In this document: positions 1-24,889 of the stretch, piece after piece | How the letters are laid out: every line of letters begins with the position of its first letter | How positions within the stretch are numbered: the first letter of the stretch is position 1 | NCBI RefSeq assembly: GCF_030384885.1 | Contig: NZ_CP128613.1 | Length of the DNA stretch: 64,000 nt | Reading direction: 5' to 3' (one strand) | DNA from: Escherichia coli | GTDB taxonomy: Bacteria; Pseudomonadota; Gammaproteobacteria; Enterobacterales; Enterobacteriaceae | Made by a program: the position numbers and the translations under genes | The notes under the pieces: model-generated | What the model was told of the DNA's origin: nothing | The model's database searches: none | The model's input: only the letters and a program-made list of their open reading frames with translations

Positions 1-67
1 TTTTTTAAACATATTTAACATAGCCAAACGGCAGACGGCATCATCTTCTCTCACTGCGGGAATCAAA

Positions 68-472: not shown

Positions 473-474
473 GG

Positions 475-909: not shown

Positions 910-911
910 AG

Positions 912-2952: not shown

Positions 2953-2955
2953 GGG

Positions 2956-3966: not shown

Positions 3967-5590
3967 TGCTGGTAATCCATTGTCTGAGAACTTCGGCAAC
4001 GCGATCGGTGTCGCTCATGGCCAGTTTTTGCAGGAACTCGAGTTTCACTTCGAGGCCAGAACTCTGGGACGGCAGGCTGTCATCGCCAGGCAGCGACGGC
4101 AGGTCGACATTTTTACGCTCCTCTTCCGGCACGGCGATCCACGGTTCGCTGATGGCTTCCGGTTCTGGTGTGATAACCGGCGCACGTACCGCCGTCAGCC
4201 GTTTCATCAGCGGGCGCACCACAAAGAACAGCAGCAACAGCGCCAGCAGGCCGCAGCCAATCAGCCGCCCCCACGCCAGTACACTGTCATCTTTCCACAG
4301 TGGAATAACCGGTTCGACAGGCACCGCCTGCGGCACAAAGTTGAGCAGTGATAAGGTGAGATTGTCACCACGCTGGGCGTCGATTCCGGCGGCATTATTC
4401 AGCAACGCGGTCAGTTGCGTGGTTTGCTCCGGCTTCCAGTTTTTCAGCGCCGGGGCGTTTTGATTGAGCACCACCGCCACGTTGAGGCGTTTCACCGCAA
4501 AGCCGGGATGCTGAATATGCTGGACGCTGCGGTCGTAAGAGTAGTCGCGCTTACTTTCGCTGTGTTTGGAAAGCGCTTCCGGCGAGCGGTTTTCTTCCGC
4601 ACCGTTGGTCATCTGATTCGCTGCAATCGGCGGACGGTTACTGAGCGAACCGGGCACGCCCATCGCCACCTGATTAGTGTCGCTGTCCAGCACGCTCTCT
4701 TCGCGGTTGATTTTCGGCGCGTCACCGTAGTGTTCCTGAGTTTCGTCGATGGTGCTGAGGTCGAGATCCGGCATCACACTGACGCGGTAATTCCCCATGC
4801 CAACCAGCGAATCCAGCACGTTCGCCACGCTGGCACGGGTTTTGTCCTGAATATCTTTGAGGATCTGATCGCGTTTACGGGTCGCGGCAGAAACCGCCTC
4901 GCCCGCGCCAATGCCGTCGGTCAGCAGATTTCCCGCCTGATCGACGACGCTGACTTTGCTGGCCTGTAGCCCCGGAATACTGCCGGACACCAGATGCACA
5001 ATGGCGTTCACCTGGTCCATATTCAGCTTCGCGCCGTAATGCAAGCGCACCACCACCGAGGCACTGTTTTGCGGCTCATCGCTGACCACAAACGAGCTTT
5101 CTTCGTTGAGCGCCAGATGCACCCGCGCGCTTTCCACCGCGTCCAGCGACATGATGCTCTGCGCCAGCTCCCCTTCGAGGCTGCGTTTATAGCGCACGTT
5201 CTGCACGAACTGACTGCTGCCGAGCATTTCGTCTTTGTCCATCAGCTCGTAGCCGCTGGGCAATATCGCCTGCACGCCTTTCGCGGCAAGGGTCATGCGC
5301 GTTTTCGACAGTTCGTCTTCCGGCACCAGTATCTGCCCGCTTTGCGGGTCGATGCGGTAGGTGAGCTTTTCGCCGTCCAGCACGGTGACAATCTGCGACA
5401 CGGGCAGATTTTCCTGGCGTCCGTAGAGCGAGACGTAGCCGCGATTCCCCGTCCATAGCACGCTGACGATAATCGCCGTCGCCGCAACGGCAAGCCCCAC
5501 ACCCGCCATCAACGCCCAGCGTTTGTTATCTGCGAGCCGCAGTCGAAACGCCGGAAAGGCCTGGGTTAACTTCTTTATTTGTGCATTCAT
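3944..5590 (-). CDS. lfiF: flagellar MS-ring protein FliF-like
   Basis: 548 aa, N-terminal TM segment and FliF/YscJ-like domain; operon position. Confidence 0.85.
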   Translation of the reverse strand: MNAQIKKLTQAFPAFRLRLADNKRWALMAGVGLAVAATAIIVSVLWTGNRGYVSLYGRQENLPVSQIVTVLDGEKLTYRIDPQSGQILVPEDELSKTRMTLAAKGVQAILPSGYELMDKDEMLGSSQFVQNVRYKRSLEGELAQSIMSLDAVESARVHLALNEESSFVVSDEPQNSASVVVRLHYGAKLNMDQVNAIVHLVSGSIPGLQASKVSVVDQAGNLLTDGIGAGEAVSAATRKRDQILKDIQDKTRASVANVLDSLVGMGNYRVSVMPDLDLSTIDETQEHYGDAPKINREESVLDSDTNQVAMGVPGSLSNRPPIAANQMTNGAEENRSPEALSKHSESKRDYSYDRSVQHIQHPGFAVKRLNVAVVLNQNAPALKNWKPEQTTQLTALLNNAAGIDAQRGDNLTLSLLNFVPQAVPVEPVIPLWKDDSVLAWGRLIGCGLLALLLLFFVVRPLMKRLTAVRAPVITPEPEAISEPWIAVPEEERKNVDLPSLPGDDSLPSQSSGLEVKLEFLQKLAMSDTDRVAEVLRQWITSNERIDNK

Positions 5591-5594
5591 AGGG

Positions 5595-5936
5595 TTAGAT
5601 CGACATACTCATCAGATCGTTAAATCCGGTGGCGATTTTGTTGCGCACCTGCACCAGCGCGGAGAAAGAGAGCGACGCCTGCTGGCTGGCGATCATCGCC
5701 CCGGCGAGGTCATCACTTTTGCCCGTGTCGACAGCCGTTTGCTGCTGCTCCGCCACCTGCTGGAACTGGTCAACGTGACCGAGCGCGCCGAACATAATAC
5801 GGTTAAACGACACGTCCGGGTCGGTGGAACTGAAGGTCATGGCGGGTAGCACTGGCGCCTGGGCGTTGGCCTGCATCCGCTGCACGTCCTGCATAATTTG
5901 CGCCTGCATGGTGCTGTTGATTGTGGTAATGCTCAT
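5595..5936 (-). CDS. lfiE: flagellar hook-basal body protein FliE-like
   Basis: ORF 5595..6158 trimmed to MSITTINSTMQ (113 aa); the untrimmed ORF would overlap the upstream regulator gene. Confidence 0.7.
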   Translation of the reverse strand: MSITTINSTMQAQIMQDVQRMQANAQAPVLPAMTFSSTDPDVSFNRIMFGALGHVDQFQQVAEQQQTAVDTGKSDDLAGAMIASQQASLSFSALVQVRNKIATGFNDLMSMSI

Positions 5937-5950
5937 TTTTAACTTCCGGG

Positions 5951-6937
5951 TCAGGAGAAAACTTCGATACCGTGCTTGCGCATGGAGGCCAGTCGATAGC
6001 GCAGGGCACGTGGGGTAATGCCTAACAGGTCGGCGATTTTGCTGCGGTTGCCCTGATATTTGCGCATCAGGTCGGCGATATATTGATACTGCGCGCTTCG
6101 TCCGTGCTGGCCTAAATCGCCGGTTTCGGCAATGTGGACGGCGGGCTGAACAGGCCATTGCAGTTCACTGTGGTCAGCAATATCGGTGTCCGGCAGGCCT
6201 AATGCATCCGGGTAAATTACGCCGTCGCGATTTAAAATCATTCCCCGCTGAATGGCGTTTTCCAGTTGGCGCACGTTACCGGGCCAGCGGTAATTAAGCA
6301 GCGCACGGCGGGTGGATTCGGACAGGGTGATATTTTTCACCAGCACCGTGGAGTATTTTTTAATAAATGACTCTGCCAGCGGAATAATATCGTTCAGGCG
6401 TTCACGCAGTGGCGGCATGGTAATAGGGATAACCGCCAGACGATAATAGAGATCTTCACGAAAACGTCCGGCGGCAACTTCCTGCTCCAGGTTTTTATTG
6501 GTGCAGGCAATCAGGCGAAAATTGAGTTTGATTTGTCGGTTACTGCCTAATCGCTCAACCTGTTGTTCCTGCAATACGCGTAATATTTTGGCCTGTAGCG
6601 CCAGCGGCATTTCACCAATTTCATCGAGTAATAAGGTGCCGTTATTTGCCAGTTCCATTTTTCCTGGCACGCTGGCAATTGCGCCGGTAAATGCACCTTT
6701 GTCGTAGCCAAATAACGTCGATTCCAGCATATTTTCCGGGATCGCCGCGCAGTTCACGCCGATATAGGGCGCATTATCATTTTCACCAAAGGCTACGGTG
6801 TGAATATACTTCGCCACGCACTCTTTCCCCGCGCCGGTTTCGCCCTGAATCAGGACCGGCACGTTAAAGGCGGCGACACGCTTTGCCAGAGTAAAAGCGT
6901 TAATGCTGGAGGCGGCAGATGCAATAAGTTCAGACAT
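5951..6937 (-). CDS. lafK: sigma54-dependent transcriptional activator (AAA+ and C-terminal HTH, no receiver domain), lateral flagellar regulator
   Basis: 328 aa; Walker A GETGAGKE near the N-terminus, GAFTGA motif (YDKGAFTGAI), C-terminal HTH; no room upstream for a receiver domain. Confidence 0.85.
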   Translation of the reverse strand: MSELIASAASSINAFTLAKRVAAFNVPVLIQGETGAGKECVAKYIHTVAFGENDNAPYIGVNCAAIPENMLESTLFGYDKGAFTGAIASVPGKMELANNGTLLLDEIGEMPLALQAKILRVLQEQQVERLGSNRQIKLNFRLIACTNKNLEQEVAAGRFREDLYYRLAVIPITMPPLRERLNDIIPLAESFIKKYSTVLVKNITLSESTRRALLNYRWPGNVRQLENAIQRGMILNRDGVIYPDALGLPDTDIADHSELQWPVQPAVHIAETGDLGQHGRSAQYQYIADLMRKYQGNRSKIADLLGITPRALRYRLASMRKHGIEVFS

Positions 6938-7061
6938 AGGGTGAACAATATAAGTAGCGACAATAATCAGGATGTTCTGAAGCGTATCACCGGCGGGATT
7001 AACAAGTTTGAATTAAACGATAATAAAAATATTATTTGTTTACAAACAACGAGTTATCCAT

Positions 7062-7144
7062 GTAGGCCGGATAAGGCGTTTACGCCGCATCCGACAATCT
7101 TGCACCGGTGCCTGATGCGATGCTGCGCGTCTTATCAGGCCTAC
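7062..7144. repeat. BIME: two inverted REP elements (GCCGGATAAGGCGTTTACGCCGCATCC and GCCTGATGCGATGCTGCGCGTCTTATCAGGC types)
   Basis: Canonical E. coli REP sequences read directly in the lafK/lfiM divergent intergenic region. Confidence 0.7.
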
Positions 7145-7323
7145 TGTTCGTGCAATGTTTTATGACGATGCCTGATATCTCACCCTTTAATAATTTAATT
7201 ATTTTTTCACCCTATTAATAATTTGCCCCTTTCACGCCCCGTCTATTTAATACCTCACCTTGTGTCACTGCCGGAATTGCATGCACAAAAACGCCCATAC
7301 CATTACAGCAGAGAAAGTAAGCC

Positions 7324-8175
7324 ATGCTGAAGTACAGTAAAACGCCAGGCATCTTTAAATTAGAAGGTAATCGGCTCGGACGCCCCTACCATCGCCTGCC
7401 GACCCTGTTTACGGGGAATTTTGACGTGATTGATTCGCATCTTGGCAGCTACTTTCTCAAAAAGCATCGCAGCAATATCACTTTAAAAAAGATTGGTTGC
7501 GAAATGGATATTATTAATAAAAACGCCGAGTTGATGGTTTCCCAGGTCGGGCATCTGGCGTTTGATATTGATCGTTCCTTATTGTTAATGCTGCTGGGTA
7601 ATTTTTATGGTCTGGAATCGTCTCTTGAAGAGGCGAAAGCGCATAACGGCCTACCGACCAAAACCGAAACACGATTAAAGAACCGACTCGCGCTGGATAT
7701 CTGCACGCTGATATTTAATCTGCAAACCTCCGGTATTGCACTGAAATTAAAACTGGACAGCAGCACAGTGATTACCCACTGGGCGTATCAATTAACCTTT
7801 ACCCTCGCGGGCGATGAAGAGAGCCGTTTTCGTATTTTGCTCGACGATGCCCACACCGATTTTATTTTAAATCTGATCCGCCACAGTGAGCACAGTAAAC
7901 CGCAGCAGGTGGCGAAATCCGTCAACAAGCCGGCACTGATTAAAGAGATCATCCGCTCCCTGCCGTTGACCCTGAACGTCAAAATCGCCGAGCTGTCGAT
8001 GAATGTTGCCGATCTGGCGCAGGTAAAAGCCGGAGATATTTTACCCATCTCGCTGGGAGAAACGTTCCCGGTGGCGATTGGGCAATCTGAATTATTTAGC
8101 GCCCTGATAGTGGAAGACAAAGACAAACTGTTTTTGTCGGAGCTGGCGGGCAAAAATGAGAATAGCCATGAGTAA
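7324..8175 (+). CDS. lfiM: flagellar motor switch protein FliM-like
   Basis: 283 aa, C-terminal SpoA-like region; precedes fliN homologue with overlap. Confidence 0.65.
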   Translation: MLKYSKTPGIFKLEGNRLGRPYHRLPTLFTGNFDVIDSHLGSYFLKKHRSNITLKKIGCEMDIINKNAELMVSQVGHLAFDIDRSLLLMLLGNFYGLESSLEEAKAHNGLPTKTETRLKNRLALDICTLIFNLQTSGIALKLKLDSSTVITHWAYQLTFTLAGDEESRFRILLDDAHTDFILNLIRHSEHSKPQQVAKSVNKPALIKEIIRSLPLTLNVKIAELSMNVADLAQVKAGDILPISLGETFPVAIGQSELFSALIVEDKDKLFLSELAGKNENSHE

Positions 8176-8539
8176 GCAAGAAGATATTTTAGCCGGGGAT
8201 TTTGGCCTCACCGATGACGTTGCGCCTGTCACGAAATCCGCCGACGCCGAAACGCTGGTCACCCGCCTGGAGGACCGTTTTTCCGACTCGATGACGCTGC
8301 TGAAACGCATTCCGGTGACCTTAACGCTGGAAGTCTCCTCGGTGGAAATCATGTTAGCCGACCTGCTGAACATCGACGATGACACGGTGATTGAACTGGA
8401 TAAACTCGCCGGGGAGCCGCTGGATATCAAAGTGAACAATATCCTGCTGGGCAAAGCGGAAGTGGTAGTGGTCAACGAGAAGTACGGCCTGCGCGTGCTG
8501 GAGTTTAACACCCGCGATATCAACGACCTGGCGCCATGA
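8156..8539 (+). CDS. lfiN: flagellar motor switch protein FliN-like
   Basis: 127 aa, SpoA/FliN C-terminal domain. Confidence 0.8.
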   Translation: MRIAMSKQEDILAGDFGLTDDVAPVTKSADAETLVTRLEDRFSDSMTLLKRIPVTLTLEVSSVEIMLADLLNIDDDTVIELDKLAGEPLDIKVNNILLGKAEVVVVNEKYGLRVLEFNTRDINDLAP

Positions 8540-9288
8540 AACGCCGCACTCAACTGACGCTGGGCCTGGCGCTGCTGGCGCTCGCGCCGCTGGCATTAGC
8601 CCAGGGCGGCGATATTGCGCTGCTTAATGTGGTCACTCACGGCAACACTCAGGAGTACAGCGTCAAAATTCAGGTACTGATTCTGATGACCCTCGTCGGT
8701 TTGTTGCCGACGATGGTGCTGATGATGACCTGCTTTACGCGCTTTATTATCGTGCTTTCACTACTGCGCCAGGCGCTGGGGCTGCAACAAACGCCGCCAA
8801 ACCGCATTCTGATTGGCATTGCGCTCTCCCTCACCCTGCTGGTGATGCGCCCTGTCTGGCTGAATATTTACGACCACGCGGTGGTGCCGTTCGAAAACGA
8901 TCAGATTACCCTGACCGATGCGTTAAGCACCGCCGCGACGCCGCTGAAACGCTTTATGCTGGCGCAGACCGACAAAAAAGCGATGGCGCAAATCATGACC
9001 ATCGGCGGCGCAAAGGGCAATGCCGCCGACCAGGATCTCTCCATCGTGGTGCCCGCCTATGTGCTGAGCGAACTGAAAACCGCTTTCCAGATTGGCTTTA
9101 TGATTTACATCCCGTTTCTGGTTATCGACCTGATTGTCGCCAGCGTATTGATGGCGATGGGGATGATGATGCTGTCGCCGCTGATCGTTTCGCTGCCCTT
9201 TAAGCTGATGCTGTTTGTGCTGATCGACGGCTGGTCGTTGACCATCGGCACGCTCACCACCAGCATTCGCGGACTGGGGCTGGGCTGA
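8536..9288 (+). CDS. lfiP: flagellar export apparatus protein FliP-like
   Basis: 250 aa, signal peptide plus FliP-type membrane segments; 4-nt overlap with fliN. Confidence 0.9.
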   Translation: MKRRTQLTLGLALLALAPLALAQGGDIALLNVVTHGNTQEYSVKIQVLILMTLVGLLPTMVLMMTCFTRFIIVLSLLRQALGLQQTPPNRILIGIALSLTLLVMRPVWLNIYDHAVVPFENDQITLTDALSTAATPLKRFMLAQTDKKAMAQIMTIGGAKGNAADQDLSIVVPAYVLSELKTAFQIGFMIYIPFLVIDLIVASVLMAMGMMMLSPLIVSLPFKLMLFVLIDGWSLTIGTLTTSIRGLGLG

Positions 9289-9290
9289 TT

Positions 9291-9563
9291 ATGCTGACCG
9301 TTGACGTAGCCGCCGACATTGTCGCCAGCGGCATAAAAGTGGTGATTTTACTGGTTTCGGTACTGGTGGTGCCAAGCCTGCTCGTTGGCCTGCTGGTGAG
9401 CGTGTTCCAGGCGGTGACGCAGATTAACGAACAGACCCTGAGCTTTTTGCCGAGGCTGATTGTCACGCTGGTGGTGCTGGGGATATGCGGCAAATGGATG
9501 ATTACCCAGTTGCATGACCTGTGCATTCACCTGTTTAGCCAGGCCGCGTTGCTGGTGCATTAA
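9291..9563 (+). CDS. lfiQ: flagellar export apparatus protein FliQ-like
   Basis: 90 aa two-TM protein, FliQ-like. Confidence 0.85.
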   Translation: MLTVDVAADIVASGIKVVILLVSVLVVPSLLVGLLVSVFQAVTQINEQTLSFLPRLIVTLVVLGICGKWMITQLHDLCIHLFSQAALLVH

Positions 9564-9564
9564 G

Positions 9565-10347
9565 ATGCGCACAAGCGACGTTACGCAACTGACGGATCTG
9601 GCGCTGGGGCTGTGGTTTCCCTTCGTGCGCATTATGGCGTTTCTGCGCTATGTGCCGGTGCTGGATAACAGCGCCCTGACTATGCGCGTGCGGATTATTT
9701 TGTCGCTGGCGCTGGCAATCATCATCACGCCGTTGATCCCCCATCCCATTCCGCATGATTTGCTCTCGCTCAACAGTTTGATCCTGACGGTGGAGCAAAT
9801 CTTATGGGGCATGTTATTCGGGCTGATGTTTCAGTTTCTGTTTCTGGCGCTGCAACTCGCCGGGCAAATTCTCTCGTTCAATATGGGGATGAGCATGGCG
9901 GTGATGAACGACCCGAGCAGCGGCGCATCGACCACCGTGCTGGCGGAGCTTATCAACGTCTACGCGATCCTGCTGTTTTTTGCCATGGACGGGCATCTGT
10001 TGCTGGTGAGCGTGTTGTACAAGGGCTTCACCTACTGGCCGATTGGCAACGCGCTGCATCCGCAAACCCTGCGCACCATTGCGCTGGCCTTTAGCTGGGT
10101 GCTGGCGTCCGCATCGCTGCTTGCGCTGCCGACCACTTTTATCATGCTGATTGTGCAGGGCTGCTTTGGCCTGCTCAACCGCATTGCGCCGCCGCTGAAT
10201 CTCTTTTCACTTGGCTTTCCCATCAACATGCTGGCAGGGCTGGTCTGCTTTGCCACCCTGCTCTACAACCTGCCGGATCACTATCTGCATATGGCGAATT
10301 TTGTGTTGCAGCAGCTCGACGCGCTGAAAGGTCACTATGGCGGATAG
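9565..10347 (+). CDS. lfiR: flagellar export apparatus protein FliR-like
   Basis: ORF 9514..10347 trimmed to the ATG just after the fliQ stop (260 aa); polytopic membrane protein. Confidence 0.85.
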   Translation: MRTSDVTQLTDLALGLWFPFVRIMAFLRYVPVLDNSALTMRVRIILSLALAIIITPLIPHPIPHDLLSLNSLILTVEQILWGMLFGLMFQFLFLALQLAGQILSFNMGMSMAVMNDPSSGASTTVLAELINVYAILLFFAMDGHLLLVSVLYKGFTYWPIGNALHPQTLRTIALAFSWVLASASLLALPTTFIMLIVQGCFGLLNRIAPPLNLFSLGFPINMLAGLVCFATLLYNLPDHYLHMANFVLQQLDALKGHYGG

Positions 10348-11476
10348 CAGCAGCGAAGAAAAAACAGAGAAACCCTCGGCGCAAAAGCTGCGTAAAGCGC
10401 GTGAAGAGGGACAACTGCCGCGCTCAAAGGATATAGGGCTGGCGGCGAGCCTGTTTGCGGCGTTTGTGGTGATCTCCAGCAGCTTCCCGTGGTATGCCGA
10501 TTTTGTACGCGAGAGTTTTATCAGCGTGCATCAGTACGCGCAGGAGATTAATAACCCGGAGGTGATCGGCCAGTTTCTGCGCCATCACCTGTTAATTCTC
10601 GGCAAGTTTATTCTCACCTTGCTACCGATGCCCGCCGCCGCGCTGCTCTCTTCGCTGGTGCCCGGTGGCTGGCTGTTCTTGCCAAAAAAAATCCTCCCGG
10701 ATTTCAGCAAAATCAGTCCGTTAAAAGGGATTGGGCGGCTGTTCTCCAGTGAACATCTTGCGGAAACAGGCAAGATGACGGCGAAGTCGGTGGTGGTGCT
10801 GGTGATGCTGTGGATTAGCCTGCGCAATAACTTTGCCGCCTTCCTCGGCCTGCAAGCGCTGCCGTTCAAACTGGCGATGAATGAGGGTTTGTCGCTCTAC
10901 GCCAGCGTGATGCGCAACTTTGTCATCCTGTTTATTTTCTTCGCGCTTATCGACGTGCCGCTGGCGAAAGCCCTGTTCACCAAAGGGCTGAAGATGACTA
11001 AGCAGGAGCTGAAAGAAGAGTACAAAAATCAGGAAGGCAAGCCGGAAGTGAAGGCGCGCGTGCGGCGGCTGCAACGGCAACTGGCGATGGGGCAAATTCG
11101 CAAAGTGGTGCCGAAAGCCAACGTGGTGATCACCAACCCGACCCACTACGCCGTGGCGTTGCAGTATGACCAGTCACGCGCCGCCGCGCCGTTTGTGGTG
11201 GCAAAAGGTACCGATGAAATCGCCCTCTATATTCGTCAGGTCGCCACTGAAAATCAGGTGGAAGTGGTCGAGTTCCCGCGACTGGCGCGCTCGGTTTACT
11301 ACACCACCCAGGTGAATCAGCAAATTCCGTTTCAGCTTTACCGGGCCATCGCCCACGTTCTGACCTACGTCCTGCAAATGAAACACTGGCGCGACGGCGC
11401 ACAGCCGCGCCCGGCTCTGAACAGACATATTTCCATTCCCAAAGAGGTGCTTAAACTGGATGGCGAAAACAACTAA
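10337..11476 (+). CDS. lfhB: flagellar export apparatus protein FlhB-like
   Basis: 379 aa, contains the FlhB autocleavage motif NPTHY. Confidence 0.9.
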   Translation: MADSSSEEKTEKPSAQKLRKAREEGQLPRSKDIGLAASLFAAFVVISSSFPWYADFVRESFISVHQYAQEINNPEVIGQFLRHHLLILGKFILTLLPMPAAALLSSLVPGGWLFLPKKILPDFSKISPLKGIGRLFSSEHLAETGKMTAKSVVVLVMLWISLRNNFAAFLGLQALPFKLAMNEGLSLYASVMRNFVILFIFFALIDVPLAKALFTKGLKMTKQELKEEYKNQEGKPEVKARVRRLQRQLAMGQIRKVVPKANVVITNPTHYAVALQYDQSRAAAPFVVAKGTDEIALYIRQVATENQVEVVEFPRLARSVYYTTQVNQQIPFQLYRAIAHVLTYVLQMKHWRDGAQPRPALNRHISIPKEVLKLDGENN

Positions 11477-13553
11477 ATCGTTCCTCGCGCTACTGCGCGG
11501 CGGCAATCTCGGCGTGCCGCTGGTGATCTTGTGTATTCTGGCGATGGTTATTTTGCCGCTGCCGCCTGCGCTGCTGGATATTCTGTTCACCTTCAACATT
11601 GTGCTGGCGGTGATGGTGCTGCTGGTGGCGGTGTCGGCGAAACGTCCGCTGGAATTCAGCCTGTTCCCGACTATTTTGCTGATCACCACCTTAATGCGCC
11701 TGACGCTTAACGTTGCTTCTACGCGCGTGGTGCTGCTGCACGGGCATCTCGGCGCGGGCGCAGCGGGTAAGGTGATTGAGTCGTTTGGTCAGGTGGTGAT
11801 TGGCGGCAACTTTGTCGTCGGTTTCGTGGTGTTTATCATCCTGATGATCATCAACTTTATTGTCGTCACCAAAGGGGCCGAGCGTATTTCCGAGGTTTCT
11901 GCCCGCTTTACCCTAGACGCGATGCCCGGCAAGCAAATGGCGATTGACGCCGATCTTAACGCCGGGTTGATCAACCAGGCGCAGGCGCAGACCCGCCGCA
12001 AAGATGTTGCCAGCGAGGCCGATTTCTACGGCGCGATGGACGGGGCATCGAAGTTTGTGCGCGGGGATGCCATCGCCGGGATGATGATTCTGGCGATCAA
12101 CCTGATTGGCGGCGTTTGTATCGGGATCTTCAAATACAACCTGAGCGCCGATGCCGCCTTCCAGCAGTATGTGCTGATGACCATCGGTGACGGGCTGGTA
12201 GCGCAGATCCCGTCCCTGCTGCTCTCTACCGCGGCAGCGATTATCGTCACCCGCGTCAGCGACAACGGCGATATCGCCCATGACGTGCGCCATCAGTTGC
12301 TGGCAAGCCCGTCGGTGCTCTACACCGCCACCGGGATTATGTTCGTGCTGGCGGTGGTGCCGGGAATGCCGCACTTCCCGTTCCTGATGTTCAGCGCCTT
12401 GCTTGGCTTTACCGGCTGGCGAATGAGCAAACGCCCGCAGGCGGCGGAGGCGGAAGAGAAAAGCCTCGAAACGCTGACCCGCACAATCACTGAAACCAGC
12501 GAGCAACAGGTCAGTTGGGAAACCATTCCGCTGATCGAGCCCATCAGTTTAAGCCTCGGTTACAAGCTGGTGGCGCTGGTGGACAAAGCGCAGGGCAACC
12601 CGCTCACCCAGCGTATTCGCGGCGTGCGGCAGGTGATTTCCGACGGCAACGGCGTGCTGCTGCCGGAGATCCGTATTCGCGAAAACTTCCGCCTCAAGCC
12701 CAGCCAGTACGCCATTTTCATCAACGGCATTAAGGCTGATGAAGCTGATATTCCGGCGGATAAACTGATGGCGTTGCCCTCCAGCGAAACCTACGGCGAG
12801 ATAGACGGCGTGCTGGGGAACGACCCGGCGTACGGGATGCCGGTCACCTGGATTCAGCCCGCGCAGAAGGCGAAGGCGCTGAATATGGGGTATCAGGTGA
12901 TCGACAGCGCCAGCGTGATTGCTACCCATGTTAATAAGATTGTGCGCAGCTATATTCCTGATTTGTTTAACTATGACGACATCACGCAGTTGCATAACCG
13001 TTTGTCGTCAATGGCACCGCGCCTGGCAGAGGATTTGAGTGCGGCGCTGAATTACAGCCAGTTGCTGAAAGTGTACCGGGCACTACTGACCGAAGGCGTT
13101 TCCCTGCGCGATATCGTCACCATCGCCACCGTGCTGGTCGCCAGTAGCACCGTCACCAAAGATCATATTCTGCTGGCGGCCGATGTGCGCCTGGCACTGC
13201 GGCGCAGCATTACCCATCCGTTCGTTCGCAAGCAGGAGCTGACGGTGTATACGCTGAATAATGAGCTGGAAAACCTGCTGTCCAACGTGGTGAATCAGGC
13301 GCAACAGGCTGGCAAAGTGATGCTCGATAGCGTGCCGGTGGACCCGAATATGCTCAACCAGTTCCAGAACACGATGCCGCAGGTGAAAGAGCAGATGAAA
13401 GCGGCAGGGAAAGACCCGGTGCTGCTGGTGCCGCCGCAGTTGCGCCCTTTGCTGGCGCGTTATGCGAGGTTGTTTGCGCCGGGGTTGCATGTGCTGTCGT
13501 ATAACGAAGTGCCGGACGAGCTGGAGTTGAAGATTATGGGGGCGTTGAGTTGA
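11460..13553 (+). CDS. lfhA: flagellar export apparatus protein FlhA-like
   Basis: 697 aa, FlhA/InvA-family N-terminal membrane domain and cytoplasmic domain. Confidence 0.9.
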   Translation: MAKTTKSFLALLRGGNLGVPLVILCILAMVILPLPPALLDILFTFNIVLAVMVLLVAVSAKRPLEFSLFPTILLITTLMRLTLNVASTRVVLLHGHLGAGAAGKVIESFGQVVIGGNFVVGFVVFIILMIINFIVVTKGAERISEVSARFTLDAMPGKQMAIDADLNAGLINQAQAQTRRKDVASEADFYGAMDGASKFVRGDAIAGMMILAINLIGGVCIGIFKYNLSADAAFQQYVLMTIGDGLVAQIPSLLLSTAAAIIVTRVSDNGDIAHDVRHQLLASPSVLYTATGIMFVLAVVPGMPHFPFLMFSALLGFTGWRMSKRPQAAEAEEKSLETLTRTITETSEQQVSWETIPLIEPISLSLGYKLVALVDKAQGNPLTQRIRGVRQVISDGNGVLLPEIRIRENFRLKPSQYAIFINGIKADEADIPADKLMALPSSETYGEIDGVLGNDPAYGMPVTWIQPAQKAKALNMGYQVIDSASVIATHVNKIVRSYIPDLFNYDDITQLHNRLSSMAPRLAEDLSAALNYSQLLKVYRALLTEGVSLRDIVTIATVLVASSTVTKDHILLAADVRLALRRSITHPFVRKQELTVYTLNNELENLLSNVVNQAQQAGKVMLDSVPVDPNMLNQFQNTMPQVKEQMKAAGKDPVLLVPPQLRPLLARYARLFAPGLHVLSYNEVPDELELKIMGALS

Positions 13554-13636
13554 TTGAGGATTCTTTTCCATACTTTGCAGCACCTGACACCATTAATTGA
13601 CGTCACACTGCAAAGAGACTACGATGACACCATACA

Positions 13637-13936
13637 ATGACGTCATGGATTGATAGTATGATTAAGGTCAGCGCGCTAGGCTCTCGTCATAGAAAAACAT
13701 TCGACGATGTAATGACGGAGCCGCCAAAATCTGGAATTAAATGGGATGATGTTGTTGCTCTCATTAAAGCGGTGGGTGGCTCAATAAAAAATAACAACGG
13801 CTCCAGACGAAAATTTCAGATTGGAACGACCAAATTCAGCACACATGAGCCGCATCCAAAGAATGTGATGGATAAAGGCGCAGTAGCAGGTCTTAAGGAG
13901 TGGTTTGTTAACTGTGTAGGGGTAGATTATGAATAA
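13637..13936 (+). CDS. HicA-like toxin candidate (mRNA interferase fold) with N-terminal extension
   Basis: 99 aa; ALIKAVGGSIK..GSRRKF..THEPHPKNVMDKGAVAGLKEW resembles the HicA pattern; overlaps the downstream gene by 8 nt; true start may be an internal Met. Confidence 0.45.
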   Translation: MTSWIDSMIKVSALGSRHRKTFDDVMTEPPKSGIKWDDVVALIKAVGGSIKNNNGSRRKFQIGTTKFSTHEPHPKNVMDKGAVAGLKEWFVNCVGVDYE

Positions 13937-14285
13937 AGCATCGAACATTATCACAATTAAAGGTCAACCAGCCGCAGTGACATTTGAAGCCGATATCAAC
14001 GCATTTCGCGGCAAGTTCCTCAATGTAAACGGTTATTGTGACTTTGTAGCCACAAGTATTGAGGCATTATATCGTGAAGGCGAAAGCGCTCTGGATGAGT
14101 GGATGGCGGATTGTGAAGAGGACGGTATTGCCCCTTTTCGTGAAGAAGAAGAGCAAAAACGCCTGACGCTTCGTGTGCCGCATCACATCGATTCGCGGCT
14201 GACCATCGTCGCCAGACAACATTCCATTTCAAAAAACCAGCTCATTATTGATGTCTTAGAACGTGAGTTTTCAGCCCAGATGTAA
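13929..14285 (+). CDS. HicB-like antitoxin candidate with C-terminal ribbon-helix-helix DNA-binding domain
   Basis: 118 aa; C-terminus KRLTLRVPHHIDSRLTIVARQHSISKNQLIIDVLEREF is RHH/CopG-like; coupled to the upstream small gene. Confidence 0.45.
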   Translation: MNKASNIITIKGQPAAVTFEADINAFRGKFLNVNGYCDFVATSIEALYREGESALDEWMADCEEDGIAPFREEEEQKRLTLRVPHHIDSRLTIVARQHSISKNQLIIDVLEREFSAQM

Positions 14286-14317
14286 ACAGGTCGGATGCCG
14301 CGTGGCATCCGACCTGT
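14286..14317. terminator. perfect 14-bp stem hairpin between convergent genes (bidirectional terminator candidate)
   Basis: ACAGGTCGGATGCC-GCGT-GGCATCCGACCTGT read directly. Confidence 0.4.
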
Positions 14318-14341
14318 TGCCAGTTCGTCAATATTACCCAT

Positions 14342-15100
14342 TTACAAAATCGTCTCTTCCGTCAAAATCCGCCGCGCGCCTAAAAAATGATCATGCCAGA
14401 AAGGTTCAGCTAACCGACTTACCCGAATGGTTTCCCCGGTGCGCGGCGACTCGATAAACTGACCGTCTCCCAGATACACGCCCATATGGTCGGCAATCTC
14501 GCGGCTGTGAATATGGAAAAACAGCAAATCTCCCCGGCGCAGGTCGTTATTTGCCACAATGGTTGCCCGACGGTAGTGATACATCTCATTGGCCGTGCGC
14601 GGGAGTTTCGCCTCGAGGATCTTGTTGTAGGCATAAAAAACCAACCCGCTACAGTCGAAGCCTTGATCGGGTCGCGTGCCGCCCCAGACGTATGGCTTGC
14701 CAAGCTGCTGCTCCAGACGGTGAATCGCCACTTCGGTGATATTATGCAGGTGGTTACTGCTGAGGAAATGATTGTTTTCCGCCAGCGCCTGCCAGCGTCT
14801 GTCACTCGCCTTGAGCGGCGCAGGAAACCATTCTGGATGCTGTTTTATCTGTTCGCGGTTGTGTTGCCGCAGTGCCCTTCTGCTTTCGGCATTGCCTTCC
14901 ACAATATAGCTGGCCTGCTTTTTCAGATGAATTTGGTACTGTTTTAATAAACGCGCACGGTTTTGCATCCGCTGGCGGGCGGCGTAGCTGAAAGAGATAT
15001 GTGATGTGGTGGCGCTGGCGAGTAAAGGGAGCAAAACGCATAACGAAAACACGCCTGGATGCAGAAATCTGCCGAGCAAGAACGAAGACATGAAGGACAT
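14342..15100 (-). CDS. yafL: NlpC/P60-family peptidoglycan endopeptidase
   Basis: 252 aa; NlpC/P60 catalytic region GFDCSGLV; synteny with yafK. Confidence 0.8.
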   Translation of the reverse strand: MSFMSSFLLGRFLHPGVFSLCVLLPLLASATTSHISFSYAARQRMQNRARLLKQYQIHLKKQASYIVEGNAESRRALRQHNREQIKQHPEWFPAPLKASDRRWQALAENNHFLSSNHLHNITEVAIHRLEQQLGKPYVWGGTRPDQGFDCSGLVFYAYNKILEAKLPRTANEMYHYRRATIVANNDLRRGDLLFFHIHSREIADHMGVYLGDGQFIESPRTGETIRVSRLAEPFWHDHFLGARRILTEETIL

Positions 15101-15391
15101 AAACCGGCTGAATGAAGGTGAGAATTTTAAAAGACCGGAGGAGTAAACGGGATTATTAATTGCTTATTTGCATATTACTATTGAGGTTTCATAATCTTAG
15201 GAAATAAATGATACATGCGCTTTTCGGACTAATGAAAACTGCCCTTGTGCTAAATTTGTAAACCCTGCGCCGACAGGCTTGCGTAAAACTCTTTTGGTGA
15301 TAATGTGAGCCTTCCAAATCCAGACTATTCCGATTTGGGATCCATTTTGCCGTCCTGGCGTGTGTAACCGTTTTATCAAGGAATAAGCAGT

Positions 15392-16132
15392 ATGCGTAAA
15401 ATCGCATTAATTCTTGCGATGTTGTTGATCCCGTGCGTTTCGTTTGCCGGTTTGCTGGGCAGCAGTAGCTCGACCACGCCAGTGAGCAAAGAGTATAAGC
15501 AGCAGTTGATGGGATCCCCTGTCTACATCCAGATCTTCAAGGAAGAACGTACGCTCGATCTCTACGTCAAAATGGGCGAGCAATATCAACTGCTCGACAG
15601 CTATAAAATCTGTAAATATTCCGGCGGCTTGGGGCCAAAACAGCGTCAGGGCGATTTCAAAAGCCCGGAAGGGTTTTATAGCGTCCAGCGTAATCAGTTA
15701 AAACCAGACAGCCGTTACTACAAGGCGATTAATATCGGTTTCCCCAATGCCTATGACCGTGCGCATGGTTATGAAGGGAAATACCTGATGATCCACGGCG
15801 ATTGTGTTTCCATCGGCTGCTACGCGATGACCAATCAGGGTATTGATGAGATCTTCCAGTTCGTTACTGGTGCGCTGGTGTTTGGTCAGCCGAGCGTGCA
15901 AGTGAGTATTTACCCGTTCCGCATGACCGACGCCAATATGAAGCGCCATAAATATTCCAACTTTAAGGACTTCTGGGAGCAACTGAAGCCGGGCTACGAC
16001 TACTTTGAGCAAACCCGTAAGCCACCGACCGTTTCTGTGGTCAATGGCCGTTACGTGGTCAGCAAGCCGTTAAGCCACGAAGTTGTGCAACCACAGCTGG
16101 CATCAAACTACACGCTCCCCGAGGCAAAATAA
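15392..16132 (+). CDS. yafK: L,D-transpeptidase-like periplasmic protein
   Basis: 246 aa with signal peptide and YkuD-like region ([12 protein letters not shown]). Confidence 0.85.
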
Positions 16133-16870
16133 GCGCCATTCGCCTGGCATAATCTTTTGCCAGGTTTCATTGCCCGTCAGCGGCTGTGTTGCAATCACCG
16201 TGACCACATCATTCGGTGTGGTCTGCGAGCTGAAGTCGATTTCCACATCCTGATCCAGCAACGTTGCCACGCCAAACGGCGCGCGGCGGGTGATCCAGTG
16301 TAAATTAGTCGAGCAATACGCCATTACATAGCGCCCGTCCGAAAGCAGCATGTTGAAAACGCCCTTCTGCCGCAGTTCATCCGCCAGTGAGGCGATATAT
16401 TTAAATACCGCCGCCATGTTGCCCGGTGTGCGCGGGTAACGCTGCGTTAATTTATGTAGGAGCCAGCAGAAGGCTTTTTCGCTGTCGGTTTCGCCTACCG
16501 GGCGGAAGTTGCCGGTTTCCAGTGATTTGTAGCCCGTCAGTTGTCCGTTATGGGCATAAGTCCAGTTACGCCCCCATAACTCGCGGGTAAATGGGTGAGT
16601 ATTTTCCAGCGCCACCTCGCCCCGATTAGCCTGGCGAATATGAGCCACCACCGAACAGGATTTTATCGGGTAGTCCTGGACAAGTTTGGCGATGGGGGAA
16701 TTAAAGCTGGGTTGTGGATCTTTAAATGTGCGACAGCCTTTACCTTCGTAAAAGGTAATGCCCCAGCCATCTTTATGTGGCCCGGTTCCACCACCACGCT
16801 GTACAAGTCCGGTGAAACTAAAGCAGATATCGGTAGGGACGTTGGCGCTCATCCCGAGCAATTCGCACAT
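16103..16870 (-). CDS. yafJ: class II glutamine amidotransferase-like protein
   Basis: ORF 16103..16885 trimmed to [11 protein letters not shown]; N-terminal Cys after Met is typical of class II GATase. Confidence 0.85.
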
Positions 16871-21694: not shown

Positions 21695-21734
21695 GTGGGG
21701 GTTGTGTTTAGGGCCGGGGAGAGTCGGGGTAAGA

Positions 21735-22808
21735 CTACGAAAGCCCGCTCCCAGCAAGGACTGACGCCAGATAGTTTCTGTCCATGGCTGCTTTTCGCAT
21801 CTTACGTCTTAACCCTGCCTTGAATACCTTATCATTCGTTAAAATATTAATAGCGATGTGCCGTATCCCTGAAAATAATTCTGCGGCGTTTCCTCTTCGT
21901 ATTTTGCAGTCGTCTTCATTCATTACCACGTCCAGACGCCAGTGCAGCTTATTCTCCACGTGCCAGTGATTTCGGATCGCTGTGGCGAACTTTTCTGCGG
22001 TTAAATCAGCAGAACTGATATAATATCTGACCGTCATTTCTGGCTCTTTCTTTTGTTCTGCTATTATTGACCGAAAGGAGAATGCCACGCATAATTTCTT
22101 CAGTCCTTTCCATTCAAACGTGAAATCAATAAGTTCATCACGGACATCGCAAACAATATGAAGACGGATTTCTTCTCTGCCGTGACTCTTTTCACTCATT
22201 GCGTAACTGTCATGCTCTGGATTATTTAATTCTTTCAGCGGAAATTTTTCCTCGAAGGCTTTATTTAGCCGCCCCTGGTTTCCTTTTACAGCGAATAAAT
22301 AATCACCTCCCTGTTTTTGTATCTTCTCTGCAATATCTTTCTGGCAACCCATCGCATCAGTTGTGATGATTTTTCCTTTAATATCCAGAATGTTAAGAAG
22401 TTCTGGGATAGCTGTAATCTCATTGGATTTCTCATCCGTCCTGATCTGTCCGATGACCAGACTGTGCATTGTTGAGAATGCACTAATGACATGAATCGCT
22501 CCCCTGCGGCGACTCTTGTCATAAGAATGCCGGAGTGTTTTTCCATCAATTGCGATGACGTCTTTATCATCTGAAGTATGGCAATCTCGCATCCAGTTAA
22601 TAAAGCACTCGTGAAATTTTGAAGGACTGATACAGGATACAACTCTGGCGATGGTATCGTGAACAGGAATACCATTTTCAAAATCACCATATTGTTTTAA
22701 AAAATCGCGATGTGCTTCCCCAAACTCCTCTATATGTTCCCAGCCTTCTGCACCAGAAATAACGGCACAAATAGTCAACAGTAGAATATCCGACAATTTA
22801 TGTTTCAC
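21735..22808 (-). CDS. H-repeat-associated protein (ISAs1-family transposase-like); N-terminus apparently frameshifted
   Basis: 357 aa ORF starting at GTG; an ATG with strong SD (AAGGAG) at 22872 opens a 24-codon ORF ([24 protein letters not shown]) in another frame that stops at the start of the long ORF. Confidence 0.8.
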
Positions 22809-22999
22809 TTTTGCAGGATTGTCTGTAATCGGGAATAACAGAAATATGTTCCATCAATTTTTTAAGTTCCATTCTTTTCTCCTTAATTATGTAAGGAGTA
22901 TTTGATCATGTATAAGCAATAAAAAAACAGCTTCAGGCAATGAGGAATATCTCAATTTTTAAACATAAAATGCGAATTGTTTAGTACAAAAAAGCAGCG

Positions 23000-24889
23000 T
23001 TAAGTGAGTAGGCCACCGGAACCTCCCCGACAGCCTCTCGCAGAACCGTACGTGAAACTCTCGCTTCATACGGCTCCCGTCAGGCAAACGCGCTTCCTGG
23101 TCCTGCTTTCCAGTGGGCAAACAACTCCGGCTTCTCTTTTGACAGCCTTTCCATTAGCTGACACGCCTTCGTCTTTCTATACCGCAGGGTTTTATATTTC
23201 TTTCTCGCCCACGCAATCAGCGTCAGATTAATATATCTGCATACTTTCTTCATCGCTGATTTGTGGTATCTCGCGTAATAATTCAGCCACCCCGATATTA
23301 TCGGATTCAGCCACTTCGCAATATCTTCGAGACTCATCTCCACCCTGCGTCTGATCCACAGTTTCCTGAGTTTTCCAATCATGCCTTTCTGCGCACGGTT
23401 ACTCGCCGCCGGGCTGAAACTCGTAAAGAGGTTTCCCCGCCGGTGGTTACGTGCTCTTCGCGCTCTGAACGTATACCCCAGAAAATCAAACTGCACTGTT
23501 TCATGGTTCGCCTGTCGTTCGCTGTCTTTGCAGTAAACTATTTTCGTTTTCTCCGGATGTAATTCCAGTCCACATTCCTGAAAACGTTTTGCCAGCTTAT
23601 TCAGTAATTCCTCTGCCTGTTGTTTACTGCCACAATGAATTAATCCATCATCTGCATAACGGCACCAGGGAATTTCCGGATAATGTAACGTCAGCCATTT
23701 ATCAAACACATAGTGCAGAAATAAATTCGCCAGTACCGGGCTGATGACTCCACCCTGTGGCGTACCTTTATTTCTTTCCTTCAGTGTTCCATCCGGCATC
23801 TGCACCGGCGCTGTCAGCCACCGGCGAATAGACAGTCTTACCCATTTATCCGCACAATGTTTATCCACTGCCCTGAGTAATAAATCGTGGGGGATATTAT
23901 CGAATAACCCTTTAATATCAAACTCAAGACACCAGTCGTATTGCCAGCAACGTTTTCTGGTGACTGCTATTGCATCCAGCGCTGATTTTCCATGCCGGTA
24001 TCCGTATGAATCATTCAGGAAATAACGCTCCACTAATGGTTCAAACGTTACCAGCACCGTCATCTGCGCTATTCGATCGCTTACTGTCGGTATTCCTAAA
24101 AGTCTTTTGCTGCCATCCTTCTTCGGAATTTCCACCGCACGCACTGGCGGCGGCATCCAGCTTCCCGACGATAACCTGTTCCAGATTTTGTACAGATTTC
24201 CTTTCAGATCCCGCTCAAAATCTTTCAGCGTCTGGTTATCCACTCCGGCAGCTCCGGCATTCGCCTTTATCCGCCGGTACGCTTCCACCACATGCAATTT
24301 ACTGACCTGAAACGGTTTTGTCTGTTCACACACAGCCTCCTCCTGCCTACAGTTGGGCTGTGATGCAGACTGCCCGACGCTGTCCCTTCGCTCCACGTTC
24401 ATTACAAACGCTTCCTCACTACTACGAACAGCTCTGCCCCGGTTTCGCACATCGATACTCTCATACTCATAATTTCGGTTATTTGTATTTCTCTCTTGAC
24501 ATTGCGACGACCGGTTCCCGTAGTTCCTGCAAAGAGCCCGATACAGCGTCATGCCTGCTATACACCGGACATCATTCACGCAGCATTCGGAATTCACCCG
24601 TAAATTAATCCCGGCGGTATCACGAAACCTCCGGTTTTGATGTCACTTAGGACTAACGACGTTTCAACACAGGTTCGGGTTTACTCATCTCACTGTATCT
24701 CACATAGGATCAGATCTCGTCTGATCGTTCCCCCTGCGCTCACTACCATGGCTCTTTACCACAGCAGCCGGGGTTGTTTGGGACCGACTTCCGACAGCAG
24801 ATCCCGGTGGGCCTGCCACCATCTCTTCACAAGCTTATGCTTATTACATGCAAAACGTCCCGTTTTGCATCTTTGTGCCTACGGCACAC
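23000..24889 (-). mobile_element. group II intron (approximate boundaries), carrying an intron-encoded protein
   Basis: Minus strand: candidate 5' end GUGUG at 24889; domain V GAGCCGTATGAAGCGAGAGTTTCACGTACGGTTC at 23078..23041 immediately after the IEP stop; 3' end not precisely mapped. Confidence 0.6.
23080..24402 (-). CDS. group II intron reverse transcriptase/maturase, no endonuclease domain
   Basis: ORF 23080..24597 trimmed to MNVERRD; RT motifs including YADD (CRYADDGLIHC) and a maturase (X) domain; ends without an HNH region. Confidence 0.85.
   Translation of the reverse strand: MNVERRDSVGQSASQPNCRQEEAVCEQTKPFQVSKLHVVEAYRRIKANAGAAGVDNQTLKDFERDLKGNLYKIWNRLSSGSWMPPPVRAVEIPKKDGSKRLLGIPTVSDRIAQMTVLVTFEPLVERYFLNDSYGYRHGKSALDAIAVTRKRCWQYDWCLEFDIKGLFDNIPHDLLLRAVDKHCADKWVRLSIRRWLTAPVQMPDGTLKERNKGTPQGGVISPVLANLFLHYVFDKWLTLHYPEIPWCRYADDGLIHCGSKQQAEELLNKLAKRFQECGLELHPEKTKIVYCKDSERQANHETVQFDFLGYTFRARRARNHRRGNLFTSFSPAASNRAQKGMIGKLRKLWIRRRVEMSLEDIAKWLNPIISGWLNYYARYHKSAMKKVCRYINLTLIAWARKKYKTLRYRKTKACQLMERLSKEKPELFAHWKAGPGSAFA

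What the first reader, a model, noticed from the sequence alone, without database searches (positions are those of the whole stretch)
15101..15391. No dinJ-yafQ module between yafL and yafK
Only about 290 bp of non-coding sequence separate yafL and yafK here; the only ORF in it is a composition-poor 72-aa antisense frame. In K-12, as I recall, the dinJ-yafQ toxin-antitoxin operon occupies this gap. Together with the HicAB-like pair on the other side of yafL, the locus appears to carry different TA cargo in this strain.
Basis: partly seen in the sequence, partly recalled or inferred. Interest (0 to 1): 0.3.

Follow-up and report, generated by a model that had tools for sequence, protein, structure and literature searches.

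The report
Empty dinJ-yafQ site between yafL and yafK
This E. coli strain lacks the dinJ-yafQ toxin-antitoxin genes that K-12 carries between yafL and yafK; this is a common, already documented strain difference, and the empty site looks like the original state, not a deletion.

Summary
yafL (14342-15100, minus strand) and yafK/dpaA (15392-16132, plus strand) are 291 bp apart, or 300 bp with the RefSeq start. No DinJ or YafQ homologue lies in the gap or anywhere else in the 64-kb window. K-12 carries yafQ-dinJ at exactly this place.

The difference is a segment replacement. 224 bp here (15028-15251) correspond to 830 bp in K-12, and the segment includes the first ~25 codons of yafL.

Among 5,426 complete E. 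coli genomes, 2,084 carry this no-TA segment and 3,342 carry the dinJ-yafQ segment. The two counts sum exactly to the total, so the states are essentially exclusive and empty-site strains carry no recognisable copy elsewhere.

E. albertii, a cryptic Escherichia lineage, Citrobacter and Phytobacter all have yafL next to yafK without the module. The YafL N-terminus here is the E. albertii/Citrobacter type. The empty site is therefore ancestral and dinJ-yafQ is a gain in the K-12-type lineages.

The HicAB pair is real and replaces K-12's rayT. It is not a substitute for dinJ-yafQ: about 1,130 genomes carry both modules flanking yafL.

The phylogroup-restricted distribution of dinJ-yafQ is published. 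This is an ordinary finding of low interest.

The parts
14342..15100 (-). yafL, an NlpC/P60 (C40) peptidase. The longest ORF is 252 aa; the RefSeq start corresponds to 15091 (249 aa). The first ~25 codons (15028-15100) are haplotype-specific.
   Evidence: ORF. Pfam NLPC_P60, E=8e-33. PGAP annotation of near-identical strains. Homology to K-12 stops at 15027.
15101..15391 (.). The yafL-yafK intergenic gap (291 bp). It holds no dinJ-yafQ, no remnant of it and no LexA box.
   Evidence: K-12 has the LexA box CTGTATATTTATTCAG upstream of dinJ; the CTG-N10-CAG scan of window 14991-15450 found none.
15028..15251 (.). The 224-bp haplotype-specific segment: the yafL 5' coding end plus the yafL upstream region. 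K-12-type strains have an unalignable 830-bp segment here, made of a different yafL 5' end, the dinJ promoter with its LexA box, dinJ and yafQ.
   Evidence: Breakpoints. Found in 2,084 of 5,426 genomes, against 3,342 with the K-12 segment. Homologous to the E. albertii, E1V33 and B2-like E. coli gaps (alignment z of 21-24) and weakly to Citrobacter (z of 2.4-5.8), but not to the K-12 type (z of about 2).
15252..15391 (+). Conserved yafK/dpaA upstream region, a putative promoter and leader. Invariant blocks are TTGTAAAC (15257-15264), CTTGCGT-N16-TAATGT (15278-15306), TTGCCGTCCTGGC and the TTTATCAAGGAA Shine-Dalgarno region. It is 99-100% identical to K-12 and retained with or without the TA module.
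   Evidence: No convincing conserved RNA structure and no Rfam family. The promoter role is inferred from conservation only.
15392..16132 (+). yafK/dpaA, a YkuD-fold peptidoglycan meso-DAP-protein amidase.
   Evidence: 98.2% nucleotide identity to K-12.
15189..15407 (-). It is spurious.
   Evidence: No Pfam match. The frame is broken by a stop at codon 22 in close relatives. It overlaps the conserved yafK upstream region and the yafK start.
13658..13936 (+). hicA-family toxin gene (92 aa by the PGAP start).
   Evidence: PGAP annotation. Pfam HicA_toxin at 29.4 bits, cut-off 27.
13929..14285 (+). hicB-family antitoxin gene (118 aa). It overlaps hicA by 8 nt.
   Evidence: PGAP annotation. Pfam HicB at 40.5 bits, cut-off 21. 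The segment 13549-14342 replaces K-12 rayT and its flanks.

Best explanation
The gap is the ancestral, unoccupied form of the yafL-yafK intergenic region. It contains only the divergent control regions of yafL (lineage-specific) and yafK/dpaA (conserved across Enterobacteriaceae).

dinJ-yafQ is accessory cargo. It entered the lineage that leads to K-12-type E. coli (published as phylogroups A, B1 and E plus F) on an 830-bp segment that also replaced the yafL promoter region and signal-peptide codons. The most likely route is homologous recombination with a donor whose yafL-yafK spacer already held the module.

This window belongs to the 38% of E. coli that never received the segment or kept the native allele. 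It therefore has no SOS/LexA-linked DinJ-YafQ mRNA interferase at this locus and, by the population counts, most likely none elsewhere in its genome. The neighbouring hicAB pair is a separate, independently distributed insertion in place of rayT.

Shown here: the absence, the breakpoints, the population frequencies, the outgroup states and the co-occurrence of hicAB with dinJ-yafQ. Inferred: the direction of change (gain), the recombinational import and the promoter assignments.
For: - K-12 has yafQ-dinJ between dpaA and yafL.
- Homology between window and K-12 breaks at 15027/15028 and resumes at 15252, which is 16 bp past the K-12 yafQ stop.
- There is no DinJ or YafQ similarity and no LexA box in the gap or elsewhere in the window.
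- 2,084 genomes have the 224-bp segment and 3,342 have the dinJ-yafQ segment, summing to 5,426.
- yafL lies next to yafK without the module in E. albertii, Escherichia sp. E1V33, a B2-like E. coli, eleven Citrobacter loci (the other Citrobacter loci show no yafL upstream of yafK) and Phytobacter massiliensis.
- The window YafL N-terminus (RFLHPGVFSLCVLL) matches E. albertii and Citrobacter (RRFLPGLLSLCVVL). K-12's (SFVLSGLLLICLPF) is a different allele.
- The K-12-type yafL-side 273 bp does not align with the Escherichia no-TA type (z of 0.2-2.3) but does align with the C. amalonaticus type (z of about 6.8).
- No flanking direct or inverted repeats mark the K-12 segment, which argues against transposition or site-specific integration.
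- The nearest non-Escherichia YafQ homologues are at most 82% identical. The two whose contexts were read sit in mobile-element-like surroundings.
- Published distribution: dinJ-yafQ in all genomes of the EB1A lineage and only in phylogroup F of the FGB2 lineage, scored as acquisitions (PMC6896753). YafQ is prevalent in phylogroups A, B1 and F (PMC10790755).
Against: - No donor genome with a yafL-dinJ-yafQ-yafK arrangement outside Escherichia was found. Only the best 80 of 145 loci from the species scan were examined, and two non-Escherichia YafQ contexts.
- A cryptic Escherichia lineage (MOD1-EC7003) also carries the K-12-type haplotype. The polymorphism is therefore old or has crossed species boundaries, and the order of events within Escherichia is not resolved.
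- No phylogeny was built. The phylogroup statements come from the literature and not from this window.
- Exclusivity of the two haplotypes is inferred from counts, not from per-genome lists.
Confidence: 0.85

Rival explanations
1. Secondary loss. The lineage of this window once carried dinJ-yafQ here and deleted it, or replaced the K-12-type segment with a no-TA allele by recombination from another strain.
For: Chromosomal TA modules are known to decay or be lost. The K-12-type haplotype also occurs in a cryptic Escherichia lineage, so it is old. yafL is unusually polymorphic, at 88-94% identity against 98-100% for yafK and yafJ, which suggests frequent recombination at this locus. Re-acquisition of the empty allele by recombination would leave no scar and cannot be excluded.
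Against: A simple deletion would leave the K-12-type yafL 5' end and dinJ promoter. Instead the whole 224 bp is the E. albertii/Citrobacter-type sequence, including the signal-peptide codons. There is no residual dinJ or yafQ similarity. The outgroups lack the module.
Confidence: 0.1
2. TA exchange. hicAB is this strain's functional replacement for dinJ-yafQ, with one module displacing the other at the yafL locus.
For: The two modules flank the same gene. This window has hicAB and no dinJ-yafQ, while K-12 has the reverse.
Against: hicAB replaces rayT, not dinJ-yafQ. About 1,134 genomes carry both modules and about 1,840 carry neither. hicAB is more frequent among dinJ-yafQ-positive genomes (about 34%) than among negative ones (about 12%).
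Confidence: 0.03
3. Artefact. The short gap comes from a mis-assembly or collapse in the sequence of this window.
For: None.
Against: The identical arrangement is present in 2,084 independently completed genomes, including one that is 99.9% identical over the 1.8 kb from yafL to dpaA.
Confidence: 0.01

Closest known systems
E. coli K-12 dinJ-yafQ locus (b0226-b0225), a type II TA with a RelB/DinJ-family antitoxin and a YafQ ribosome-dependent mRNA interferase, LexA-box promoter
   Same: Same chromosomal site and same flanking genes (yafL, dpaA/yafK, yafJ, lpcA, fadE). The yafK-proximal 140 bp are 99-100% identical.
   Different: Both genes, their promoter and the LexA box are absent here. 224 bp of unrelated-looking sequence stand in for the 830 bp of K-12, and the YafL signal peptide differs.
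Empty-site haplotype of phylogroup B2/D-type E. coli, E. albertii and Citrobacter (yafL and yafK adjacent)
   Same: Same gene order, a homologous intergenic sequence and the same YafL N-terminal type.
   Different: The window sub-variant lacks 11 bp that are present in the B2-like, E. albertii and E1V33 versions (224 bp against 235-236 bp). It is 91-93% identical to the most frequent, B2-like version.
HicAB type II TA family (the pair beside yafL; distinct from the K-12 hicAB/ydcQ locus)
   Same: HicA_toxin and HicB Pfam domains are present. The toxin gene lies upstream and overlaps the antitoxin gene by 8 nt. PGAP names them HicA and HicB.
   Different: It is not at the K-12 hicAB location. 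It occupies the rayT position between lfhA and yafL. The HicA score is only just above the Pfam cut-off. Activity was not tested.

Membership tests
dinJ-yafQ type II toxin-antitoxin module | A RelB/DinJ-family antitoxin ORF (about 86 aa) | tested here: not met
   tblastn of K-12 DinJ against the whole window gave a best E-value of 7.6. No such ORF lies in 15101-15391.
dinJ-yafQ type II toxin-antitoxin module | A YafQ (PF15738) toxin ORF (about 92 aa) immediately downstream of the antitoxin | tested here: not met
   tblastn of K-12 YafQ against the whole window gave a best E-value of 1.3. The ORFs in the gap have no Pfam match.
dinJ-yafQ type II toxin-antitoxin module | A LexA-box/DinJ operator palindrome in the promoter | tested here: not met
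   A CTG-N10-CAG scan finds the K-12 box at L001 6520 and none in window 14991-15450.
Ancestral (unoccupied) yafL-yafK intergenic haplotype | The sequence of the gap is homologous to the gap of outgroup species that lack the module | tested here: met
   It aligns with E. albertii, E1V33 and B2-like E. coli (z of 21-24) and weakly with Citrobacter (z of 2.4-5.8).
Ancestral (unoccupied) yafL-yafK intergenic haplotype | No relic of the inserted element and no target-site duplication or deletion scar | tested here: met
   Searches find no dinJ or yafQ similarity. One search finds no repeats in the window gap.
Ancestral (unoccupied) yafL-yafK intergenic haplotype | Absence mapped as the root state on a species phylogeny | not tested
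   No tree was built. Only the outgroup states and published phylogroup distributions are available.
HicAB type II toxin-antitoxin module (neighbouring pair) | HicA toxin domain and HicB antitoxin domain in adjacent genes, with the toxin gene first | tested here: met
   Pfam PF07927 at 29.4 bits (cut-off 27) and PF05534 at 40.5 bits (cut-off 21). hicA at 13658-13936 overlaps hicB at 13929-14285. PGAP names agree.
HicAB type II toxin-antitoxin module (neighbouring pair) | The toxin arrests growth and is neutralised by the antitoxin | not testable with these tools
   This needs expression experiments.

The most novel reading that the evidence does not exclude
The dinJ-yafQ presence/absence polymorphism is really an allelic replacement. 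K-12-type strains carry a foreign, non-Escherichia-like yafL 5' region (promoter plus signal-peptide codons), imported by homologous recombination together with the TA module. TA status is then tightly linked to a different regulatory and secretion-signal allele of the peptidoglycan hydrolase YafL. Phenotypes attributed to dinJ-yafQ in strain comparisons could then partly reflect yafL or yafK expression differences.
Probability: 0.45. Interest if true: 0.25.

Novelty: already known. Interest (0 to 1): 0.1.

Why it matters
It matters little in itself. The result confirms that chromosomal type II TA modules are accessory cargo in E. coli and that this strain belongs to the large minority (38% of complete genomes) without dinJ-yafQ.

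Three practical points follow.

- K-12-based expectations about SOS-linked DinJ-YafQ, persistence or biofilm tolerance do not transfer to this strain.
- The indel boundary lies inside yafL. Gene-presence pipelines will therefore also see two YafL N-terminal alleles.
- The conserved 140 bp upstream of yafK argues that yafK has its own promoter. This is relevant to concerns that dinJ-yafQ deletions, such as in the delta-10 TA strain, perturb yafK (PMC5120126).

Tried and rejected
- Rfam scan of 13500-16300 at E<=1: only one chance-level miRNA hit, so no known RNA family lies in the gap.
- Consensus promoter and terminator scan of the gap: two 9/12 promoter-like sites and three weak hairpins at the yafK start, close to the shuffle expectation and uninformative.
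- RNAalifold on the yafK leader from 37 taxa: only a 4-bp hairpin, three of whose four pairs never vary. There is no support for a structured leader.
- The 72-aa antisense ORF as a gene: rejected, with no Pfam match and a broken frame in relatives.
- Repeats flanking the K-12 dinJ-yafQ segment or in the window gap, sought as signs of transposition or site-specific insertion: none meaningful.
- Search for a donor with a yafL-dinJ-yafQ-yafK arrangement outside Escherichia: none among 80 species loci. The Salmonella and Klebsiella YafQ homologues lie in unrelated, mobile-looking contexts. The 90%-identity YafQ variants are the same Escherichia locus.
- Ramisetty & Santhosh 2016 (FEMS Microbiol Lett), on horizontal transfer of chromosomal TAs, is not in the held library.
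- The hypothesis that hicAB substitutes for dinJ-yafQ: rejected on the co-occurrence counts.

Full report
**Observation**

The window around the finding reads lfhA (11460-13553, plus strand), hicA/hicB (13658-14285, plus), yafL (14342-15100, minus), a gap, yafK/dpaA (15392-16132, plus), yafJ (minus), lpcA (minus) and fadE (plus). RefSeq annotation of two near-identical strains gives the same gene names. The gap is 291 bp by the longest yafL ORF and 300 bp by the PGAP start, which corresponds to window 15091.

In K-12 MG1655 the same interval holds yafQ (b0225) and dinJ (b0226), with 155-bp and 209-bp spacers. K-12 DinJ and YafQ find nothing by tblastn anywhere in the 64-kb window, and the K-12 DNA segment finds only two short chance-level blastn matches, about 14 kb away from this locus. 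The K-12 LexA box upstream of dinJ (CTGTATATTTATTCAG) has no counterpart in the gap.

The 72-aa antisense ORF (15189-15407) has no Pfam match. It carries an in-frame stop at codon 22 in B2-like E. coli, E. albertii, Escherichia sp. E1V33, Escherichia sp. MOD1-EC7003 and O111:H8. It is not a gene.

**Anatomy of the difference**

Pairwise comparison with K-12 shows homology up to window 15027 and again from 15252. Position 15027 lies inside yafL, about 25 codons from the start. Position 15252 corresponds to 16 bp beyond the K-12 yafQ stop codon. Between these points, 224 bp here stand against 830 bp in K-12. The event is therefore a segment replacement and not a clean indel.

The replacement changes the YafL N-terminus. 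This window encodes MSFMSSFLLGRFLHPGVFSLCVLLPLLA|SATTSH. K-12 encodes MSLPSIPSFVLSGLLLICLPFSSFA|SATTSH. The sequence from SATTSH onward, where the two alleles converge, is essentially the same.

The 140 bp next to yafK (15252-15391) are 99-100% identical to K-12. They are strongly conserved across Enterobacteriaceae, with invariant blocks TTGTAAAC, CTTGCG(A/T)-N16-TAATGT, TTGCCG-TCCTGGC and TTTATCAAGGAA. I read this region as the yafK promoter and leader, an inference from conservation alone. The consensus promoter scan did not pick it up. RNAalifold finds no covarying structure. Rfam finds nothing.

**Population frequency**

Among 5,426 complete E. coli genomes, 5,424 contain the yafL-yafK locus.

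- 2,084 genomes (38%) carry the 224-bp no-TA segment. Of these, 823 are at least 95% identical to the window version. Another 1,231 are 90-95% identical, and those listed are 11 bp longer (B2-like). A further 30 are a more divergent form.
- 3,342 genomes (62%) carry the K-12-type dinJ-yafQ segment.

The two counts sum exactly to 5,426. The states are therefore essentially mutually exclusive, and empty-site genomes carry no recognisable second copy elsewhere.

This agrees with published surveys. One reports dinJ-yafQ in all genomes of the EB1A lineage and only in phylogroup F of the FGB2 lineage, and scores these as acquisitions (PMC6896753). Another reports YafQ as prevalent in phylogroups A, B1 and F (PMC10790755). 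A third describes TA modules as horizontally transferred units integrated next to core genes, and lists the K-12 spacers of yafL-209 bp-dinJ-yafQ-155 bp-yafK (PMC5120126).

**Direction of change**

A scan of one genome per species with YafK returned 80 loci. yafL lies directly upstream of yafK, 260-390 bp away and without DinJ or YafQ, in these genomes:

- E. albertii
- Escherichia sp. E1V33
- a B2-like E. coli
- eleven Citrobacter loci (including C. youngae, C. braakii, C. gillenii, C. werkmanii and one C. amalonaticus strain); the other Citrobacter loci show no yafL upstream of yafK
- Phytobacter massiliensis

Only Escherichia sp. MOD1-EC7003 shares the K-12-type haplotype.

The window YafL N-terminus matches the E. 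albertii and Citrobacter type: RFLHPGVFSLCVLL against RRFLPGLLSLCVVL. The 224-bp segment aligns strongly with the other Escherichia empty sites (z of 21-24) and weakly with Citrobacter.

The K-12-type yafL-side sequence (273 bp) does not align with the Escherichia empty-site type (z of 0.2-2.3). It does align with a C. amalonaticus-type upstream region (z of about 6.8), including a block of about 50 bp at roughly 80% identity. No direct or inverted repeats flank the K-12 segment.

The simplest reading has two parts. The empty site is ancestral. The K-12-type segment, consisting of a foreign yafL 5' end, the dinJ promoter, dinJ and yafQ, was imported by homologous recombination from an unidentified enterobacterial donor.

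I did not find that donor. The closest non-Escherichia YafQ proteins are at most 82% identical. The two whose contexts I read, from Salmonella and Klebsiella, lie among small hypothetical and plasmid- or pilus-like genes and not between yafL and yafK. The 90%-identity variants are the same Escherichia locus.

Loss through later re-replacement by an empty allele cannot be formally excluded without a phylogeny. yafL is unusually polymorphic, at 88-94% nucleotide identity against 98-100% for yafK and yafJ, which suggests frequent recombination here.

**The HicAB pair**

hicA (13658-13936) and hicB (13929-14285) pass the Pfam cut-offs: HicA_toxin at 29.4 bits against 27, and HicB at 40.5 bits against 21. 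PGAP annotates them as HicA and HicB. The segment 13549-14342 exactly replaces K-12 rayT and its flanks.

A chimeric query made of hicAB plus the 224-bp segment matched 3,218 genomes. Of these, 244 hold both parts at one place. With 2,084 genomes carrying the 224-bp segment, the counts work out as follows.

| State | dinJ-yafQ present | dinJ-yafQ absent |
|---|---|---|
| hicAB present | about 1,134 | about 244 |
| hicAB absent | about 2,208 | about 1,840 |

O111:H8 strain 8234 shows flhA-hicA-hicB-yafL-dinJ-yafQ-dpaA in a single locus. Strain BS-01 shows rayT-yafL-dpaA with neither module. All four combinations exist, and hicAB is more frequent among dinJ-yafQ-positive genomes. 'Different TA cargo' is an accurate description of this strain against K-12. 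It is not a swap or a compensation.

**Verdict**

It describes a common, already published presence/absence polymorphism of an accessory TA module, and the window carries the ancestral empty state.

The points I could not find stated in the papers I read are these:

- The polymorphic segment reaches into yafL and changes its signal peptide and upstream region.
- The K-12-type yafL 5' region looks foreign.
- The conserved 140-bp yafK upstream region argues for an autonomous yafK promoter.

These are modest refinements. Novelty: already known. Interest: low.

Noticed in passing
window 15252-15391: The ~140 bp upstream of yafK/dpaA are conserved across many Enterobacteriaceae genera. Invariant blocks are TTGTAAAC, CTTGCG(A/T)-N16-TAATGT, TTGCCG-TCCTGGC and TTTATCAAGGAA. 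The region is identical whether or not dinJ-yafQ lies upstream. This suggests yafK has its own promoter and leader, contrary to the 'No promoter, likely cotranscribed' entry in Table 1 of PMC5120126. No covarying RNA structure and no Rfam family were found.
   Followed up: partly
window 14342-15027 (yafL): yafL is much more polymorphic among E. coli haplotypes (88-94% nucleotide identity) than the adjacent yafK and yafJ (98-100%). The two major haplotypes also encode different YafL signal peptides.
   Followed up: partly
window 13549-14342: A hicA/hicB pair exactly replaces the K-12 rayT (REP-associated tyrosine transposase) segment between lfhA and yafL. About 1,380 of 5,426 complete E. coli genomes carry this hicAB, and most of them also carry dinJ-yafQ.
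   Followed up: yes
window 1-13553: The Flag-2 (lateral flagella) cluster is intact here. lfhA/flhA is 697 aa, and fliE-J, fliM-R and flhB are present according to the matching annotated genome. K-12 and the otherwise closest strain 2013C-4282 have a truncated lfhA pseudogene.
   Followed up: no
window 1-25000: The best match of the first 25 kb among 5,426 complete E. coli genomes is only 97.8% identical (96% coverage), although the yafL-yafK region is 99.9% identical to strain 2013C-4282. The locus is a mosaic, or the lineage is poorly represented.
   Followed up: no
window ~21700-24600, by comparison with L002 and L085: Downstream of yafV, the related genomes carry an ISAs1 transposase pseudogene and a group II intron reverse transcriptase (ltrA), followed by Rhs/T6SS effector genes. 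The window has large minus-strand ORFs at 21735-22808 and 23080-24597 in the corresponding place.
   Followed up: no
L089 3001-3330 and L090 1249-1578: Some Escherichia genomes encode a 109-aa YafQ variant, 90% identical to K-12 YafQ and with a C-terminal extension, at the same yafL-dinJ-yafQ-yafK locus.
   Followed up: no
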